From positions 1 to 13,284 of the forward strand of contig NW_021826167.1 of the NCBI RefSeq assembly GCF_006345805.1: DNA of 13,284 nucleotides, in the 5' to 3' direction. Within the stretch, counting starts at the first letter, position 1. The number at the start of each line of letters is the position of its first letter. The position numbers and the translations under genes were made by a program. The notes under the pieces were generated by a model, which was not told the origin of the DNA, ran no database searches, and worked only from the letters and a program-made list of their open reading frames with translations. This document shows positions 1-13,220 of this stretch, piece by piece. This DNA is from Octopus sinensis. Its lineage: Eukaryota.

Positions 1-347
1 AATTGAACCAGCCAGGATCCCTGGTCTGGTGGTACGTAAAAAGCACCATCTGACTCGTGGCCGATGCCAGCACCGCCTCGTCTGGCTTCCGTGCCGGTGG
101 CACATAAAATACACCAATCCGACCGTGGCCGTTGCCAGCCTCGCCTGGCACCTGTGCAGGTGGCACGTAAAAAGCACCCACTACACTCACAGAGTGGTTG
201 GCGTTAGGAAGGGCATCCAGCTGTAGAAACACTGCCAGATAAGACTGGAGCCTGGTGCAGCCTTCTGGCTTCCCAGATCCCCGGTCGAACCGTCCAACCC
301 ATGCTAGCATGGAGAACGGACGTTAAACGATGATGATGATGATGATG

Positions 348-348
<1 letters not shown>
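1..348 (+). mobile_element. 3' end (3' UTR and (GAT)n tail) of an RTE-type LINE or RTE-tailed SINE, cut by the window start
   Basis: Ends CCAACCCATGCTAGCATGGAGAACGGACGTTAAAC(GAT)n. It is the diverged reverse complement of 2151-~2470, which is physically joined to an RTE ORF C-terminus. Confidence 0.85.
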
Positions 349-378
<30 letters not shown>

Positions 379-501
379 ATGTATGTATGTATGTATGTGT
401 ATATATATATATGTATATATATATATGTATGAATATATATATATATGTATGTATATATATATATGTATATATATGTGTGTGTATATATATATATATATAT
501 A

Positions 502-538
<37 letters not shown>
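349..538. repeat. Compound (TATG)n/(TA)n/(TG)n microsatellite
   Basis: Directly visible; explains the YIYI/MYVC ORFs in the track. Confidence 0.98.
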
Positions 539-540
<2 letters not shown>

Positions 541-543
<3 letters not shown>

Positions 544-1206
544 TAAATATATGGCACAACGAAGTACCGGTATTTACTGGAAATAGCGAACGTAATAATA
601 CGACGCTAATGTATAGCTTCACCGCGTATGTACTAGCAAAAATGCGTGTGTGCAACAAACTAGAAAAAAATTGTCTTACCTCCGGGGAGAACATCTGAAA
701 GATGAAATACCTGGAAAAGGATAATGTGGGACCTGCGCAGGTTTCAGATTTTTCAAGATATGTCTGCCACCCATAAACTTGATCTATCTTCATCAGCCAA
801 ACATATACCACGACAACCTTTCAGATGTTACCACATTAATGCCAATACACTCGACTGAAACGGCGAAACGCTAACAGCACAAGAACGGTGAAGAAGTTTC
901 AATAAATTAGTAATGCAATACTAGAGTATTGCTTTCCAGTAAAGAATAGCCCGTGAGGGAAAAATATACAAAGAAGTAAATATATGGCACAACGAAGTAC
1001 CGGTATTTACTGGAAATAGCAAACGTAATAATACGACGCTAATGTATAGCTTCACCGCATATGTACTAGCAAAAATGCGTGTGTGCAACAAACTAGAAAA
1101 AATACCGGTTCTTCGTTGTGCCATATATTTAATTCTTTGTATATTTTTCCCTCACGGGCTATTCTTTACTGGAAAGCAATACTCTAGTATTGCATTACTA
1201 ATTTAT
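541..1206 (-). mobile_element. Small non-autonomous hammerhead-bearing retroelement (retrozyme-like / Penelope pLTR-like): 433-nt unit, partial tandem copy and terminal inversion
   Basis: Direct repeat 541-668 ~ 974-1101 (offset 433, 2 mismatches). Inverted repeat 902-1008 / 1100-1206 (2 mismatches). Hammerhead at 724-804. (TA)n on both flanks. No credible ORF. Confidence 0.7.
724..804 (-). ncRNA. Type I hammerhead ribozyme
   Basis: The minus strand reads ATGTTTGG-CTGATGA-AGAT(36 nt)ATCT-GAAA-CCTGCGCAGG-TC-CCACAT. Both core boxes are intact, the cleavage triplet is GUC (cut between 730 and 729), and stems I, II and III all pair. Confidence 0.85.
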
Positions 1207-1272
1207 ATATATATATATATATAATATATATATATACATACATACATATACATATATATATATATATATATA
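1207..1272. repeat. (TA)n/(TACA)n microsatellite
   Basis: Directly visible. Confidence 0.97.
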
Positions 1273-1775
1273 TTAAGGTATGTAGAAAAATACAACATGG
1301 ACAAGAACGTATAACTCTTAGAAGACGATACAATAAACACGGACAGGACATTCGAAACCCTCAGTCTTCAGTCAAGAACCGGATCATCGTAGTAATTTCG
1401 GCTGATTAATCTTGAGATTACTAGATCACGGCCAGCCCTCCAAGAAAAACTAAGCAACGAGCATTAGAAAAACTAAGCTGGGAGCGTAGATTTCCTGGAA
1501 GAAGGATCGAATGCATACGGACACCAGGACAGCAAAAGGGACGAATATAAAAAAACAAAAAAATAATGGAATACAGAAACATGAAATACAGAAGCATTAA
1601 CGGTGTGAAAACAACAACAAGTGTCTTACGACTGATAACAAGCAAACAAATTTTTTCTCTGGCGCAAGGAAAGGAGCCTTATCGGAGATGCCTATAGCGG
1701 CGGACGAAAAACAACGATGTTAACACGACGCTGGTCAGAAGCGTGAAAGGCAGATTTCGGCCAGCAGTCACGTGA

Positions 1776-2150: not shown

Positions 2151-3112
2151 ATCATCATCATCATCATCATCATCATCATTTAACGTCCTCTTTTCATGCT
2201 AGCATGGGTTGGACACAGTTCACCTGGGGTCTGTGAAGCCAGGAGGCTGCATCAGGCCCAGTATGATGTGGCAGTGTTTCTACAGCTGGATGCCCTTCCA
2301 AACGTCAACCACTCTGTGAGTGTAGTGGATGCTTTTTACGTGCCACCTGCACAGGTGCCAGACGGAGCTGGCAGACGGCCTCGGACGGATGGTGCTTTTT
2401 ACGTGACACCGGCACGGAGGCCAGTCGGGGCGGTGCTGGCAACAGCCACGATTGGATGGTTCGCTTACTTGTCACTGGCATCACAGCTGCAATTTCCATT
2501 GATGTTGATCGACTTCAATTTTCGTTCTGCTTTCTGATATCTGATTTGATTTGGTTTGATTTTGATTTTGATTCTGATTTTCACTTGCCTCAACGGGTCT
2601 TCACAAGTGGTGTTTTGTGTCCCAAGAAGGAAAAGTATGTATAAGTCGACTGGCTACATACCAGGTAGAGGCCACGGGTTATGGTTTCACTAGTCTTGCC
2701 GGGTCTTCTCACGCACAGCATACTTCCATAGGTCTCGGTCTCTAGTCATTTCCTTAGTGAGACCTAAAGTTCGAAGGTCGTGCTTCACCACCTCGTCCCA
2801 GGTTTTCCTGGGTCTACCTCTTCTACGGGTTCCCTCAACTGCAAGGGAGTGGCACATTTGCACACAACTATCTTCAGCCATTCTCGTCACATGACCATAC
2901 CAGCGCAAACGTCTCTCTTGCACACCACAACTGATGCTTCTTAGGTCCAACTTTTCTCTCAAGGTACTTACACTCTGTCGATTATGAACACTGACATTAC
3001 ACATCCATCGGAGCATACTGGCTTCATTTCTTGCGAGCATACGCATATCCTCAGCAGTCACGGCCCATGTTTCACTACCATGTAGCATGGCTGTACGTAC
3101 ACATGCATCATA
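2151..3112 (-). mobile_element. 5'-truncated RTE-clade LINE (ORF C-terminus, ~510-nt 3' UTR, (GAT)n tail)
   Basis: (ATC)n at 2151-2178 is the tail on the - strand. The ORF carries the RTE C-terminal motifs MLHGSETW, LRWYGHV and RGRPRKTW. Truncated at the (TA)n starting ~3111. Confidence 0.92.
2690..3112 (-). pseudogene. C-terminal fragment of RTE LINE reverse-transcriptase polyprotein
   Basis: YDACVRTAMLHGSETWAVT...ERRLRWYGHVTRM...EGTRRRGRPRKTWDEVVKHDL...RDLWK, stop at 2690. The Met at 3088 is internal, not a real start. Confidence 0.92.
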
Positions 3113-3148
3113 TATATATATATATATATATACAGATATATTTATGTA

Positions 3149-3181
<33 letters not shown>
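3111..3181. repeat. (TA)n microsatellite
   Basis: Directly visible. Confidence 0.97.
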
Positions 3182-3353
3182 GGGGTAGAAAATATTTCAG
3201 TAGAGAAACACTTGGTGGATATATATAAAAAGAGAAAAGATGAAAAAATCAGAAGATTTGTTTCACAGGATTTAGGGGTATATTAGAGCCATGGAAAAAA
3301 AAGATTTATAATTTTGTACAAAATAAGGTTTTGTCCTTTCCAAATAATTGAAG

Positions 3354-3377
3354 GACCGGTTTCGAGTTGCTTATCAA
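3354..3377 (-). ncRNA. Minimal hammerhead-like core, copy 1 (U3-A8 variant)
   Basis: Minus strand TTGATAA-G-CAACT-C-GAAA-CCGG-TC: 1-bp stem II, palindromic stem III ACCGGT, GUC triplet. Stem I pairs poorly. Confidence 0.45.
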
Positions 3378-3448
3378 ACTGAGAGTTGAAAAAAAAAGAT
3401 ATATAATTTTGTACAAAATAAGGTTTTGTCCTTTCAAAATAATTGAAG

Positions 3449-3472
3449 GACCGGTTTCGAGTTGCTTATCAA
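3449..3472 (-). ncRNA. Minimal hammerhead-like core, copy 2 (U3-A8 variant)
   Basis: Identical to copy 1, 95 nt away. Confidence 0.45.
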
Positions 3473-4087
3473 ACTGAGAGTTGAAAAAAAATAGATACGG
3501 CAAGTGGAGATAATTGTTCATTCATATATTTTACAGTTAAGGGGAAGTAAATCTGTAAATTTTTATTTGTTCTCACTATTTTTTTTTTCTGGCTTTTGCC
3601 CTACATTAGATGGGGTAAGTCCTTTATTTTTAATATGGGTTTATATTTATTTATTTGGTCTGTATTTGGGGATAAATGAGTCTTCTTTATTCAGTCTTAC
3701 TTCTTGAAGATTCTCACCAATGCCAAACTATTCCCTAGAACAACAGATGCAAGAGTTGTAAAGTGTGGTTCACCTATTTGCAGAAAATCTTTTAGAAGGA
3801 TCGGAATTCCATTTCAGACAAGGGCAAATATTCAAAATCAAATCCAACGTCCCTTGCACACCCCAAAACCTCATTTACATAATCAGATGCTTGGGCTGCC
3901 TTCGAAACTAAATTGATTCGAGAGGAATTTTAATCCAAAAGAGCTGTATGGTCCACAAACAAAAAATTCCTCCCCACAATATCGCTGAGATACCTCAGTT
4001 ATCACACTGATAAATGTGCAGAACGATTAGAAGCACAATTCGTTAGATTCCCATTTCAGCAACTTGCCTTCTGGACCTCAACACAAG

Positions 4088-5889: not shown

Positions 5890-8800
5890 ACACTGAAGAC
5901 TTTGATTTCTCCTTTTCTACATTCTCGATTAAACAGGTTCTTTCACTCGCAACATACTTGCTGTAGACTTCCATCTTTACGAAAACACTTTGCGACGGCA
6001 TTTCTTCTCCAGCCTTATTTTCCGTTTCATGTGGAAAACGAAAAAGTCGATTAGCTCGAGACTGGAGATAAACATGCCTGTTGCAATTCCTTTTACTCTC
6101 GTCTTCACACTACTTCTTTCGCCATAGCAACTACCGAGAGAAAACAGGCTCGCTCCTCCCTATTCAGGAAGGTCGGCGGAACTATCTTAATTACAGATTC
6201 GCTCGACAGTTGTACTCTTCTCGAATGCGACAGCAGGTGTTCGACATAAGTCCAGAGTTCAGTCACCTTGGGGCATTGCACAATCGCGTGCAGGACAGTT
6301 TCACTGTCCCTCTTACATCTTGCACAAACCGGCGAAGGTGCACACCCATGTCTAAAGAGCTTATCTCGAACCGGTAAAGTTCCTCTGTAACATTGCCAGG
6401 CCAGGGACTTTTGGTAATTATCCATAGGCCCCGGACCGAATGTTCTTTGGAAACAGCTGGCCAGTTGATTTTCGGCGAAGCCCAGAGTTTCTCCTAGGTC
6501 GTCGTCACACTTAAACTCTCTAAACCTCTATAGAAGAACACGGTAGTAGCCCTGCCACCGGCGTTGCCCGACTGGGAGAGAAGCACGAGTGCCTGATAGC
6601 ACTCTGCATGCCACATGCCCAACCTCGGTCTACACTTGATCCATGGGTTCAGTTCGTTTAAACGATGTGAACTGTGGAAAAAACAGCTTGACAAACGGAG
6701 ACCACACCTGCTCACCGTCCAGGTAAATCCAGAGGTGCCTTAGCCTGAGCGCATGTCTGCGCATTTTAGCCACGGCATCCCTAACCCACCGTTCAGCGGC
6801 TTTTGGCAGCAAATAGAGCGCCTTACAAGAGGTCTGCTGCCCCTCCATAAAAGCGAAAGAGCATGCGTTCCAGTTTGTTCAGCCACGAATCGGGGCAAGG
6901 CACTACGGTTAGGCGGTAAGTGATTACAGAGGCGATAAACACTTCTGCAACCTCCGCCTTCCTTTCAAGGACAGATTCCGTTCAGACCATGTCTGAGTTA
7001 GGAGAGCCACCTTTCTCGCCACCTCGCTCCAATCCTTCTCTATCTGGAGATCTGGACCTAACCAGATCCCAAGCATTTTCACCGGTCCTTCCGTCCAACG
7101 TCCTACGACGCTGTCGGAAGACATCGACTTGCCCCTCCAGGTGCCGAGTTGCAAGCCGACGATTTATCCCGGTTGACTTTCGCTCCTGCAACCGCTTCGT
7201 AGTCCCTTAAGGCCTCACCCACCCACTGTAGGTGCTCGACTCGGGAAACGATGACGGTGATGTCGTCCGCATACGCCGAAGCTGACTTTCCGCACCCTAG
7301 ATCTGCGGGGTGCCTCTCATAGTTTCCAACCTCCTCAGCAACGGCTCGAGGGCCAAAACGTAGAGAAGCGGGGAGAGAGGACACCCTTGACGTACCGAAC
7401 GTTCAATGCTGAACGGTTCGAAAGGAAACCATTTACCCGAACTACCGATTCGATGTTGCTGTATAAGCGATGATCCATCCGCGGAAGGTCGGGCCGAAGC
7501 CAGCCGCCGCGAGGACCGCCGCCAGATACTGATGGTCCACCCTATCAAACGCTTTCGATTGGTCCAAGTGGACCATAGCCCCACCCTTGCCAGGAATCCT
7601 ATTTACCCTTTCTAAGGCATAGCGTAGAAAGTGGAGATTGTCTTTGATGGTCCTTCCAGGGATGGCGCAAGTTTGCGCCTCGCCAACAAGTTCACCCACG
7701 ACCCTCGCCAACCTTTTTGCTAAGACCTTGGCCAAGATCTTCAACTCTGCGTTAAGCAGAGTGATAGGCCGGAAATTATCAATTAAATCCCCCTTGTTTG
7801 GGTCCTTTCTTAACAACGCTACCACCCCTCGGCTCACAGACTTAGGAATTCTCCCGTTCTGCTGCCAGTTGGTGTACACGCATGCAAGTAGGTGCCCAAA
7901 CAAGTCTGGCATGCTACTATAGAGTTCGTAAGGCAGACCATCGAGTCCCGGCGATTTGTCCCCGCCGCATTCTGCCAACATATCCTCGACTTCTTTGGCT
8001 GTGATCAGCGCCTCACAAGATTCCGCGTCCGGCCTCGATAGACGCGGCGAACCGGCTAGGAAGTCTGCGAGCTTCTCCCCGCGCTCCAGCTCGCCGCTCC
8101 TCCCGAATAGCTGGGCGAAATGATCATGAAACACCTTGCACATCTCCTCGGGTTCGTTTACTAATCGACCATTTGGGCCCGTCAAGGATCGAATGGTTGA
8201 GCTGTTGCCACGCTGGCCCTCTACCACCCGGGCCCATCCGGCTGCGTTGATCCCTTCCTGTCTCATTGCACGGATCTTAGCCCTGACAATGCACCCTTCA
8301 TGTTTAGCTTGGAGATGTTGGTCTAGTGCTAACCTCGCCGCTAACACTTTCGATGCACTGCCTGACCTCATTGCCTCCTCTATTGCCTTAACTAGTTCCT
8401 TTTCTACTTTGTTTCTAGCACTAGCTAGTTCTTGCTAACCTAATTGACTCAAATTTGATGGCTCTTTTCAGGGCGTACCACCATTTATTGTTGATAATGG
8501 ATCCGGTAAACGCCCTCATTACTAATTGTTTAATCCGATTCCTGTAGGCTTCACAGTCCAATAGTGACTTGTTTAGCTTCCAGTAACCGGTACCTCGTCT
8601 ACACATGCTATCTATGTCGAGCGTACAGGTCACTAATTTGTGATCGCTGTAGCTGACGATATGGTGTTGTGGACAGCTAAGTATTTCTTATCTTTCCTTC
8701 TAGTTATGATTCTATCGATATAAGATCTGGACGACCGTCGTTTCTTGCCCAGGTCCACTCTGGAGTGTCTGGATGGTCCAGTCTGAATCTATCTGCCAAT

Positions 8801-9329
8801 TCGAAACGACTTAGCATATCGTTGAGGTGAGGTAATCCCCTCGTATTCTTTCTCGAGCCAACAATCTACGCTTGCATCGCAAATTATGTTGAAGTCACCT
8901 AGCAATACTAACGTGTTCGACGTGCCAAGAAAATTCTCTAGGCTTTTGAAATACTCTTTCTGCCCGGCTTTTCCTGCGCAGGGAGCGTAGACAGCGACCA
9001 GCCTGAACACTTTACCACTGCTGTGCGTCACATCCAAAACGACCAACCTGCCTTCCGGATCTATAAAGACAGTTCTAATCTCTAAATCCAGGTTTTTCCT
9101 GACCAGCACTGCCACTCCTCCTCCCCCTCCAGGTCGACAGGGAGAAATGTATTTCTCGTAGCCGTTTAGAAGGGCCGAAAAAGCCTGCAGCCCACTCAGT
9201 CTGGATTCGGTAATTACCACTACATCCAAACGATGCGACCTAAGGTCGTTAAGGAGGTAGCCTTGCTTCCAATACGACCCCAGGCCGCGAGTATTTATAC
9301 AACCGAGTTTAAACGAGAATGTGAAAATT
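5890..9329 (-). pseudogene. LINE ORF2 (APE endonuclease, reverse transcriptase, zinc-binding C-terminus), multiple frameshifts and stops
   Basis: EN: KLGCINTRGL, DVVVITESR, VYAP, LLGDFN, YIDRI, YSDHK. Linker: GYWKLNKSLL. RT: KSPGLDGLP, NFRPITLLNAELKILAK, LDQSKAFDRVDH, VRQGCPLSPLLY, AYADDIT. C-terminus: CARC..ETVLHAIVQC. Split over at least seven ORF fragments; the 3' end is approximate. Confidence 0.95.
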
Positions 9330-9347
9330 TAGTCGAATGTTTAAAAC

Positions 9348-10930
9348 TTACTGTTTTAACGGAAGAGAGGATGTAGTTTCACCCTCATCTTTTCTGTCTG
9401 TGAGTGTTGTGTTTTGCGAGGTCAGTTTTTTTGCGAATTGCTTGTACAGATGGCTTGAAAAGTTCATCTGTAACGGGCCTACATCCTCCGCAAAAGATTT
9501 TTTAATTTCAAAATATTCCGCGTTATCTATCGTATAAAATTCTACATTTTCGGATATAATACTATTTATATCTGTTGCGATATATTTTTCGCCGATTTCA
9601 GTAAATTAATTTTCCCTTAATGGTTATTGTTTTTATTTATCGCCGTGAAGGTGTTTCTTTTTTTTTTGTTAGGTGATTGTGGAGGGGGCTGTGTGTGTGT
9701 GCTTGTAGAAGCGTGGGTGTTTGTAGGTGTTGTGCGTGCTTGTGGTAGGTGTGTGAGTGTTTGTGTGTGCTTTTCCAGTGTGTGTGTTTTTTTGGCTACG
9801 TGTGTGTTTGCGACTGTATTGTGGGTGTGGGTGTGCTTGTCTGTGTCAGAGTATAGTCCTGTGTATCCGAAGAGGGTGGATTTTTCCGTTTCCGTCTTCT
9901 TTTTGAAGCTTCCACGTTGACCCACTCCTGGATGTTGTTGATTGTTGTTGTCGTTCGTTTTCTCCCGTTGTCGGCTGAATTTCGGCAATTGGGGTGCGCG
10001 ACGTGGCTGCTATTTCTAGCGGTGAAGTTGTTTCGGCGTCGTGCTTGCCTCTGTAGTATTTTCTTTCGCTTGTTCTTGCAGCTCGACCGTATGTGGCCTT
10101 TCTCGCCACATTTATAGCATCTCGGTTTTCTTCCCTCGACTATTACCATCAAGGTGGTATCTCCAATGGTGAGGGAGCTTGGCAATTTTTCCAAGTCCGA
10201 GGGGTTCGCTTGGATCACAAGCTCTAAGTCCTGTCCATACCAGGTTGTGGGGCGATATCTTTTAGACTGAAGAATGGCAATTTCTTCCTCTTTGCCTAAG
10301 AGAATCGCTGCTGTTATAAAATCCACCTCGATTTCGGGCGGAATGTCCGTAACCGTTATTCTACTAGTTCTCATTCCTAAATAAAATGGTAAAAGAACTA
10401 CCTCTTCCGACTTCAACGTTCTTGTTGAATGTTCCCTAGCTATTTCTTCGCTAGGGAAACGCACCTCTACCGTGCCGAAGCGACTACCCCTTGTTATAAA
10501 TGTAGTTTGTTGCCATATCGGCCTCAAACATTTTTCTATGGCTTCTCTCTGTACGAAGTCAATTTTCTTATTTTTGACATTATAAGTCTTGTATATGACA
10601 GTTTTTCTCTCCGTCGCGTAAATCAATTCACTGGGAGGGAACAACTTCACATTATCACCTTCTTTTTTTAGTAGTCCTTGGTATTTCTTTAATTCTTCCT
10701 TGTTGATGACTATATTTTCACAGGGGCGAGTTGCTGCACTCGCAAACTTTATCTTTGCCTTTTCTTGTCGTTTACTAACTTCGCCAGACATATTGTGGTC
10801 TGCTTTTGTGAGGCTCGCGTGAGACGTCTCTTTACTTCTACATTCTTCCTCCCGCATTTTCGCCTTCATCGCCTTCAAACAAATTTTCAACGTTTTCCTC
10901 CGACTCGGAGGAGACTGGTTGCAAATTCAT
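9348..10930 (-). pseudogene. LINE ORF1 (RRM-like region and CCHC zinc knuckle), frameshifted
   Basis: ORF 9796-10890 contains RCYKCGEKGHIRSSC (CX2CX4HX4C) preceded by RITVTDIPPE. The likely true ATG is at 10930 (MNLQPVSSESEE..) in another frame. A Thr/Pro/His-rich tail and further coding-like sequence run to TAA at 9348. Confidence 0.85.
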
Positions 10931-12462: not shown

Positions 12463-12613
12463 TACATACATACATATTTGCATATATAATTATATATACA
12501 CACACGAGGCTGTAGTATACATAGGTTTTTATGCATTTAATGGAACACGAGTGTATATTTGATGTAATTATTAAGTGAATGTGATGTTTTATGTTTGTTT
12601 TTCTTCCTTTCAG

Positions 12614-12770
12614 GGGTAAAACTGATGTTGTGGCCTTCTTAGTCTCCAGTGGAGCAAATGTTAATAAGCAGAACTCATTTGGCAACACACCTCTACATCT
12701 GGCTGTGGAGAATAACTATGAAGATGTAGTCAAAGTCCTGTTAAATAGCAAAGAAAATAACAATTTACAG
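12614..12770 (+). CDS. Internal coding exon of an ankyrin-repeat protein
   Basis: Polypyrimidine tract and CAG acceptor (12611-12613); CAG|GTCAGC donor. Encodes GKTDVVAFLVSSGANVNKQNSFGNTPLHLAVENNYEDVVKVLLNSKENNNLQ, with the ankyrin GxTPLHLA motif. Confidence 0.93.
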
Positions 12771-13220
12771 GTCAGCGAATATATATATATATGTGTGTGT
12801 GTGTGTATAATGATATGTATGTTGGTTTGTGTTATATGTATATGAAACAGTTTATATTTATATTTTTTTAATTAAAAACTTTTCTTCAGCTCACACAGAC
12901 CTGTACATACATACACAAATATACACACACATAAACGCATATATACACAAAAATGCATAAACAAATGATCCGTGAAGATATAAAACACGTATGTATATAT
13001 AGGTATTTATGTATATATGTATGTGCGAGAGTGTATATATACATATGCATACACAAATGTGTGTGTGTATAGATACATTATAAATCTCGTTTATTTTCCC
13101 CCCCACCTTCATTCCACCTGTTTAAATTAATCTGATTCTGTTTTTCTGACATTTTTCATTTTTTTCCTTCTTCTCCCAATAAACACCATCTTTAATGTCT
13201 TTATTGTTTATCTTTTTTAG

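What the first reader, a model, noticed from the sequence alone, without database searches (positions are those of the whole stretch)
541..1101. 433-nt non-coding unit present as ~1.3 head-to-tail copies around the ribozyme: candidate retrozyme / circular-RNA-derived element
Seen: 541-668 recurs at 974-1101 (offset 433; only two differences, both CG to CA). There is one hammerhead per unit, no ORF, and (TA)n on both sides. Known: non-LTR retrozymes are tandem monomers of a few hundred nt, each with one hammerhead, that yield circular RNAs and are thought to be mobilised by PLEs; PLE pLTRs also form partial tandems. Inference: a more-than-unit-length copy is what reverse transcription around a circular or multimeric RNA would leave. 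This may be an undescribed cephalopod retrozyme family or a solo PLE pLTR; I cannot tell which, or whether it is already catalogued.
Basis: partly seen in the sequence, partly recalled or inferred. Interest (0 to 1): 0.8.

Follow-up and report, generated by a model that had tools for sequence, protein, structure and literature searches.

The report
Ribozyme-bearing mini Penelope retroelement (retrozyme)
This is one copy of a scattered, protein-free 433-base repeat family that carries a hammerhead-ribozyme motif and sits in TA-repeat DNA with the end patterns of Penelope retrotransposons, so it is likely a small RNA parasite copied by their enzyme; the kind is known, but its copies hint at how the copying likely works.

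Summary
The repeat is real: 541-668 recurs at 974-1101 with two CG>CA differences. The sense strand is minus, with a type I hammerhead at 804-724 (predicted cut between 730 and 729).

The unit is a dispersed family of at least 136 distinct loci. None of them is the terminal repeat of an intact ORF.

Copies carry the insertion signature of Penelope-like elements (PLEs): (TA)n targets (197 of 212 ends), 5' truncation, partial tandems and two fixed 3' ends about 62-66 nt apart. All 74 head-to-head pairs have one end of each kind.

5' ends cluster 6-20 nt behind the predicted cut (15 loci against 4 and 4 in the flanking windows). Stem III varies between subfamilies but stays palindromic.

Verdict: a new family of a known kind, a non-autonomous PLE or non-LTR retrozyme, likely moved by a Neptune-type reverse transcriptase. 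The partner was not identified by homology. Cleavage and circular RNA are inferred, not shown (circle about 50%).

The parts
348..539 (.). (TA)n/(TG)n microsatellite; target at the 3' end of the long arm (end A)
   Evidence: 106 of 116 A ends in the family abut TA-rich DNA
541..973 (-). full 433-nt unit, sense on minus; unit position 1 = window 973
724..804 (-). type I hammerhead motif: stem I 804-797/729-724, CUGAUGA 796-790, extended stem II 789-746, GAAA 745-742, 12-nt palindromic stem III 742-731, predicted cut between 730 and 729
   Evidence: 97.8% of 503 cells paired and 3 pairs with two-sided change across 16 copies; cleavage not tested
974..1102 (-). 5'-truncated second pass of the unit (positions about 305-433); makes the long arm 572 nt, 1.3 units
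1100..1206 (+). inverted arm (unit 399-433 + 1-72), joined 5'-to-5' to the long arm over a few shared bases and ending at end B
1141..1206 (+). PLE-type tail between ends A and B, with a 7-bp hairpin at 1176-1193 just before end B
   Evidence: 96 of 212 canonical arms end here
1204..1273 (.). (TA)n microsatellite; target at end B
   Evidence: 91 of 96 B ends abut TA-rich DNA

Best explanation
The 433-nt unit is a dispersed, protein-free, hammerhead-bearing repeat family with Penelope-type insertion ends, likely a non-autonomous Penelope-like retroelement (non-LTR retrozyme) copied in trans by a Neptune-type RT/GIY-YIG protein.

Shown: many dispersed copies; (TA)n targets; 5' truncation; two fixed 3' ends (A and B); head-to-head pairs with one A and one B; arms longer than one unit that cross the predicted cut without indels; 5' ends clustered just behind the cut.

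Inferred mechanism: (1) the minus strand is transcribed; (2) the hammerhead cuts part of the RNA at GUC, probably as a dimer through the palindromic stem III; (3) the PLE protein cuts (TA)n DNA and primes two cDNAs, one from each DNA end, one at internal start A and one at internal start B; (4) the two cDNAs join 5'-to-5' by microhomology; (5) arms longer than a unit come from a re-ligated 433-nt circle (about 50%), or from uncut multimers and template jumps (about 50%).
For: Family: 128 and 183 exact motif matches, controls 0; 136 distinct loci, 235 arms.
Ends: 212 of 235 arms end at A (116) or B (96); 197 of 212 abut TA-rich DNA.
Pairs: 74 of 74 head-to-head pairs are A+B; 43 of 43 among loci not picked by the tail pattern (about 1e-13 if ends were independent). 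In 30 of 66 simple pairs neither arm lies within the other, so two RT events are needed. PLE papers describe partial tandems, inverted 5' copies and a one-sided tail (PMC8557442, PMC3846280, passages) and two internal RT starts bounding the tail (PMC11167929).
Cut site: 5' ends at 251-265 in 15 loci against 4 and 4 in the flanking 22-nt windows (binomial p 0.002); second pass 9 of 17 against 24 of 155 (p 0.001). 140 of 141 crossings have no true indel.
Structure: stem III stays self-complementary through a 6-nt length change and a G-C/U-A double change. Circular monomer folds at z -5.3, antisense at -2.0.
Helpers: three ORF-bearing Neptune-type families end in (TA)n, two of them visibly at two sites. 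One insertion fuses this family's tail to a Neptune-type ORF fragment (L145).
Against: No sequence homology to the 3' repeats of the three autonomous families examined (blastn, nhmmer), so the helper is not identified; L145 is a single chimera. The position-free scan test for the 5' cluster gives p 0.003 for all arms but 0.056 with paired ends collapsed. The cluster could be an RT stall at the 3' edge of stem I (two ends lie exactly there). The lowest-energy fold hides the core; the hammerhead fold costs 6.7 kcal/mol. In vitro, a PLE hammerhead was dispensable for insertion and no RNA-seq reads ended at its cut (PMC11167929); 8 of 9 Xenopus retrozymes did not cleave (10.64898/2026.07.22.740005). 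Only 5 of 136 loci hold two hammerheads in tandem and none is a long array. Rare variants shared between passes of one arm are few (7 in 7683 columns, some at ambiguous positions), weak support for a circle. The sample is biased toward long and young copies.
Confidence: 0.85

Rival explanations
1. Same element, but no circle and no role for cleavage: templates are uncut read-through transcripts of the few tandem loci, and the 5' cluster is an RT stall at the hammerhead structure.
For: Seamless crossings fit uncut RNA equally well. Cleavage was dispensable in vitro for an Anolis PLE (PMC11167929). No 5' end sits exactly at 245; two sit at the edge of stem I.
Against: Few ends at the outer 10-bp stem that RT would meet first (267-288: 4 of 159). 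In L078 the junction to another hammerhead family falls, twice, within about 7 nt of that family's predicted cut. A lineage copied only from linear uncut RNA should erode at its 5' end, yet subfamily changes occur throughout the unit (inference).
Confidence: 0.3
2. The copies are 5'-truncated ends or solo pLTRs of an autonomous PLE family not yet found.
For: The layout (hammerhead, splice-donor-like sites, two 3' ends) is that of a pLTR; the genome holds thousands of PLE candidates; only part of the family was fetched.
Against: 78 of 212 arms run past one unit into the unit's own 3' end. PLE protein hits lie in 7 of 136 loci, none as an intact ORF leading into the unit. No shared ORF-like 5' flank among 53 single-orientation loci; shared flank matches looked by eye like other repeats.
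Confidence: 0.08
3. Local DNA duplication or satellite-type amplification, with the hammerhead a relic.
For: 10.64898/2026.07.22.740005 proposes local tandem amplification of PLE termini. One duplicated segment does carry several copies, which were dropped.
Against: Copies lie on many chromosome-scale contigs with unrelated flanks, have fixed 3' ends and ragged 5' ends, reach at most 2.7 units, and keep base pairing through two-sided changes.
Confidence: 0.03
4. Inverted arms arise by fold-back self-priming on one cDNA or an antisense template (model in PMC3846280), not by two primed cDNAs.
For: Junction microhomology of 1-5 nt is common; both arms share the stem III type in 10 of 11 pairs, chance about 0.16; in 36 of 66 simple pairs one arm lies within the other.
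Against: In 30 of 66 simple pairs neither arm contains the other, 27 by more than 20 nt; L031 has arms of different subfamilies.
Confidence: 0.12

Closest known systems
Metazoan non-LTR retrozymes (coral, mussel, axolotl; PMC7229834)
   Same: Few-hundred-nt AT-rich non-coding unit, one type I hammerhead per unit, head-to-tail copies, highly self-paired predicted RNA, PLEs in the same genome.
   Different: Mostly dispersed single units, partial tandems and inverted pairs rather than arrays (maximum 2.7 units in 136 loci). Fixed PLE-type ends and (TA)n targeting are visible here. Stem II is extended and stem III is a 12-nt palindrome in the window's subfamily. RNA circles are shown there and untested here.
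EN+ Penelope-like elements, Neptune clade (PMC8557442, PMC3846280, PMC11167929, PMC4209133)
   Same: Partial tandem, inverted 5'-truncated copy, tail on one end, microsatellite targets, hammerhead with palindromic helix III about 190-260 nt upstream of the 3' ends.
   Different: No RT/GIY-YIG ORF; tail of 62-66 nt rather than 30-40 nt; no detectable homology to the three autonomous families examined.
Non-autonomous Chlamys PLEs such as MRC1 (PMC8557442, passage)
   Same: Non-coding PLE derivative with pLTR-like partial and head-to-tail copies.
   Different: Green algae; that clade lacks canonical hammerheads; those elements resemble their partners at the 3' end, which was not found here.
Xenopus retrozymes related to PLE pLTRs (10.64898/2026.07.22.740005)
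   Same: Retrozyme as non-autonomous PLE derivative.
   Different: There the link is sequence homology and co-occurrence; here it is the insertion anatomy. No mollusc was sampled in that study.

Membership tests
non-LTR retrozyme | type I hammerhead in the unit | tested here: met
   core and three stems present, pairing kept across 16 copies; no Rfam hit
non-LTR retrozyme | short (150-450 bp) AT-rich unit in head-to-tail copies, no ORF | tested here: met
   433 nt, GC 0.34-0.42, no credible ORF, 78 of 212 arms exceed one unit
non-LTR retrozyme | two or more consecutive units with complete hammerheads (the 'active' criterion of 10.64898/2026.07.22.740005) | tested here: inconclusive
   not met by the window copy; two hammerhead positions in tandem at 5 of 136 loci
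non-LTR retrozyme | self-cleavage of the RNA | not testable with these tools
   indirect only: 5' ends cluster behind the predicted cut
non-LTR retrozyme | expressed as a unit-length circular RNA | not testable with these tools
   only assembled contigs were available, which cannot separate circles from tandem transcripts or DNA
non-LTR retrozyme | target-site duplication longer than 4 bp; no PBS or PPT | not tested
   duplications cannot be read inside (TA)n; PBS/PPT not searched
Penelope-like element (structure) | 5'-truncated partial tandem and inverted 5' copy | tested here: met
Penelope-like element (structure) | tail on one end, two 3' end sites | tested here: met
   212 of 235 arms end at A or B; 74 of 74 head-to-head pairs are A+B
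Penelope-like element (structure) | AT-rich or microsatellite target | tested here: met
   197 of 212 ends
autonomous PLE | RT + GIY-YIG ORF between pLTRs | tested here: not met
   no intact ORF leads into the unit in 136 loci; many flanks reach only about 1.5 kb
derivative of a named autonomous Neptune family | pLTR homology to the helper | tested here: inconclusive
   none to three families; other PLE families were not sampled

The most novel reading that the evidence does not exclude
The family is a fossil record of the PLE reaction in vivo: hammerhead-cut and re-ligated 433-nt RNAs pair through a selected palindromic stem III, and a dimeric Neptune RT copies the two RNAs from two different fixed start sites, one for each end of a (TA)n break. 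The ribozyme would then set template ends, and its palindrome would be a dimerisation signal, neither of which has been shown for PLEs.
Probability: 0.25. Interest if true: 0.75.

Novelty: new member of a known kind. Interest (0 to 1): 0.5.

Why it matters
PLEs are proposed as the mobilisers of animal retrozymes from shared hammerheads, co-occurrence and pLTR homology, and the role of their hammerheads is open: one in vitro study found cleavage dispensable. This family shows the PLE insertion signature on a retrozyme directly, gives a strict one-A-one-B rule, and shows a modest excess of 5' ends at the predicted cut. At 433 nt, with natural short and long stem III variants, it is a compact substrate for testing cleavage, circularisation and two-ended priming. 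The class itself is known, so the surprise is moderate.

Tried and rejected
Rfam: no hammerhead hit, only microsatellite-driven miRNA noise.
A Pfam family search by an accession from recall failed: not in the library.
Helper search: three autonomous Neptune-type families were fetched; no homology to the unit. A minimal-hammerhead pattern gave 90 matches, almost all another family, with only weak core similarity and no ORF in front in the 30 loci fetched.
Intron removal: no deletion of 8 nt or more recurs across loci; none of the four runs shows a skipping joint.
Expression: no RNA holder listed. Contigs of four runs guessed to be RNA cover the unit in part and show head-to-tail joints, but genomic tandems give the same, so this says nothing on circles.
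Shared private variants as a circle test: too few to decide.
Earlier scan findings: none by sequence.
Rows dropped: 14 of 150 unit loci (same place twice, or copies of one duplicated segment); 23 of 235 arms with other 3' ends were left out of the end statistics; L145 was counted apart from the 74 pairs.
Literature: 7 searches listed no paper on a cephalopod retrozyme. Dfam and Repbase were not available, and supplements were not read (PMC7229834 Fig. S6 and the preprint's tables may list related repeats).

Full report
Observation. 541-668 recurs at 974-1101 with differences only at 588/1021 and 626/1059, both CG>CA. The hammerhead lies on the minus strand at 804-724, with the predicted cut after GUC between 730 and 729, unit position 244/245 counting from window 973. 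Rfam did not find it. An inverted arm at 1100-1206 matches 902-1008. The insertion is therefore 541-1206: a 572-nt arm on minus and a 107-nt arm on plus, joined 5'-to-5', each ending in (TA)n. No credible ORF overlaps it. The window is a whole unplaced contig of a 2.72-Gb genome; the host was not identified by any search.

Family. Searches of the own genome gave 117 matches from 40 of 1414 candidates, 50, 128 and 183 exact matches to three motifs with reversed controls at 0, and 93 matches from 40 of 1762 candidates for a copy about 84% like the window's. These are lower bounds. I fetched 150 unit loci, dropped 14 duplicates, and analysed 136 with 235 arms. Two leftover flank matches lie outside the set that carries the 5'-end result. 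The sample favours long and young copies.

No ORF. Two PLE proteins found hits in 7 of 136 loci. Six are separate neighbours. L145 is a chimera in which a truncated Neptune-type ORF is fused to the unit's last 84 nt. 78 of 212 arms run past one unit into the unit's own 3' end; 5 loci hold two hammerhead positions in tandem, the longest 2.7 units. In the subset picked by the tail motif, 32 of 127 arms exceed one unit.

PLE signature. 212 of 235 arms end at site A (about unit 6-10 of the next pass; 116) or site B (about 70-72; 96), and 197 of these 212 abut TA-rich DNA. All 74 head-to-head pairs have one A and one B, 43 of 43 among loci not picked by the tail motif. Junctions mostly share 1-5 nt. 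In 30 of 66 simple pairs neither arm contains the other, which a fold-back copy of one cDNA cannot give. Both arms have the same stem III type in 10 of 11 testable pairs, so the two templates are usually alike. Partial tandems, inverted copies and a one-sided tail are described for PLEs (PMC8557442 and PMC3846280, passages). Two internal RT starts bounding the tail, AT-rich cleavage of both strands and a predicted protein dimer are reported for an Anolis PLE (PMC11167929, parts 1-2 of 4).

Ribozyme. Across 16 chosen copies 97.8% of 503 cells pair and 3 pairs change on both sides; related sequences can inflate such scores. Among 119 hammerhead copies stem III is a 6-nt palindrome in 29-30, a 12-nt CCGG-type palindrome or near-palindrome in about 29, and the window's 12-nt CCTG-type palindrome in 38, the rest being rare variants. 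The direction short to long is inferred from the minimal form also occurring in other PLE families here. Minimal PLE hammerheads with palindromic helix III are thought to work as dimers and cleave poorly (PMC4209133, parts 1-2 of 4). The circular monomer folds at -117.3 kcal/mol, z -5.3 against 40 shuffles, antisense z -2.0; forcing the hammerhead costs 6.7 kcal/mol.

Does it cut? 5' ends fall at 251-265 in 18 arms of 15 independent loci, against 4 and 4 in the flanking windows. The binomial p is 0.002; the second pass gives 9 of 17 against 24 of 155, p 0.001. A position-free scan gives p 0.003, or 0.056 with paired ends collapsed. This suggests templates whose 5' end is the cut, trimmed to a microhomology, but an RT stall at stem I is not excluded. 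Where arms cross the cut, 140 of 141 do so without a true indel; 3 were flagged, of which I read 2 as alignment artefacts. That fits ligated circles or uncut RNA. L078 is a 508-nt chimeric unit whose junction to another hammerhead family falls twice near that family's predicted cut, which hints at template jumps from cut ends.

RNA. In contigs of run X5, guessed to be RNA, 11 of the 40 listed differences are A>G on the hammerhead strand; each is present in only 0-4 of 113-128 genomic loci, and none has a 5' G. This looks like A-to-I editing of double-stranded transcripts (editing preference recalled), but rests on a few contigs without DNA of the same animal. It is a weak hint only.

Helper. 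Three ORF-bearing families with a C-terminal GIY-YIG-type domain and a CxxxxCxxC linker, Neptune-type by the description in PMC8557442, end in (TA)n; two show two 3' ends and the third's continuing flank suggests the same layout. None shares detectable 3' sequence with the unit. Post hoc, all three and the unit carry CACG(T/G)G 10-16 nt after site A, a lead for a shared signal and not a test.

Comparison. It works like, and on sequence features is, a non-LTR retrozyme (PMC7229834, parts 2-4 of 6), a class argued to be non-autonomous PLEs (10.64898/2026.07.22.740005, parts 1-3 of 5). Cleavage and circles, the functional defining features, could not be tested. Seven searches listed no paper on a cephalopod retrozyme; PMC8967140 (passages) notes Penelope expansions in octopus without ribozymes. 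Dfam, Repbase and supplements were not seen, so prior cataloguing as an unclassified or Penelope repeat is quite possible.

Verdict. New member of a known kind. Non-autonomous PLE or retrozyme 0.85; use of cut RNA as template about 0.65; circular intermediate about 0.5; interest 0.5.

Noticed in passing
window 1274-about 1780, minus strand: A second repeat ending at the same (TA)n, with a degenerate hammerhead-like core near 1371-1335; related sequence flanks other loci (L018, L054, L078, L224, L242). Probably the end of another PLE-type family.
   Followed up: partly
window 3292-3497: 95-nt tandem (2.1 copies, 97%) with a minimal hammerhead-like motif on the minus strand whose first box is altered; near (TA)n at 3110-3181.
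   Followed up: partly
window 6105-10926, minus strand: Broken LINE with zinc-knuckle ORF1, endonuclease and RT domains (Pfam); L1/Tx1-like from recall.
   Followed up: partly
window 12585-12842, plus strand: Ankyrin-repeat coding stretch, probably a host exon.
   Followed up: no
window 1-330 and 2184-2470; 2690-3100: Two opposed copies of a common interspersed repeat (92% over 116 nt) and an RT-tail-like fragment without a Pfam hit.
   Followed up: no
L097:208-559, L041:4663-5104, L044, L096, L007, L037, L193-L222: Many other type I hammerhead families with long stem II and palindromic stem III in (TA)n, some in tandem (periods 351 and 441) or inverted; the genome seems to hold a zoo of such elements.
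   Followed up: partly
L078:1705-2720: 508-nt chimeric unit of this family and another hammerhead family, repeated 1.7 times; suggests shared machinery and template switching.
   Followed up: partly
L145:1790-3200: Truncated Neptune-type ORF fused over a few shared bases to this family's tail, between two (TA)n runs.
   Followed up: yes
L081, L091, L144: Three independent loci with the same 254/262 inverted junction over a 3-nt microhomology just behind the predicted cut.
   Followed up: yes
window 676-715, minus strand: Splice-donor-like sites and an ATG just behind the hammerhead, as in pLTRs that overlap an ORF start; no intron-less copy seen.
   Followed up: partly
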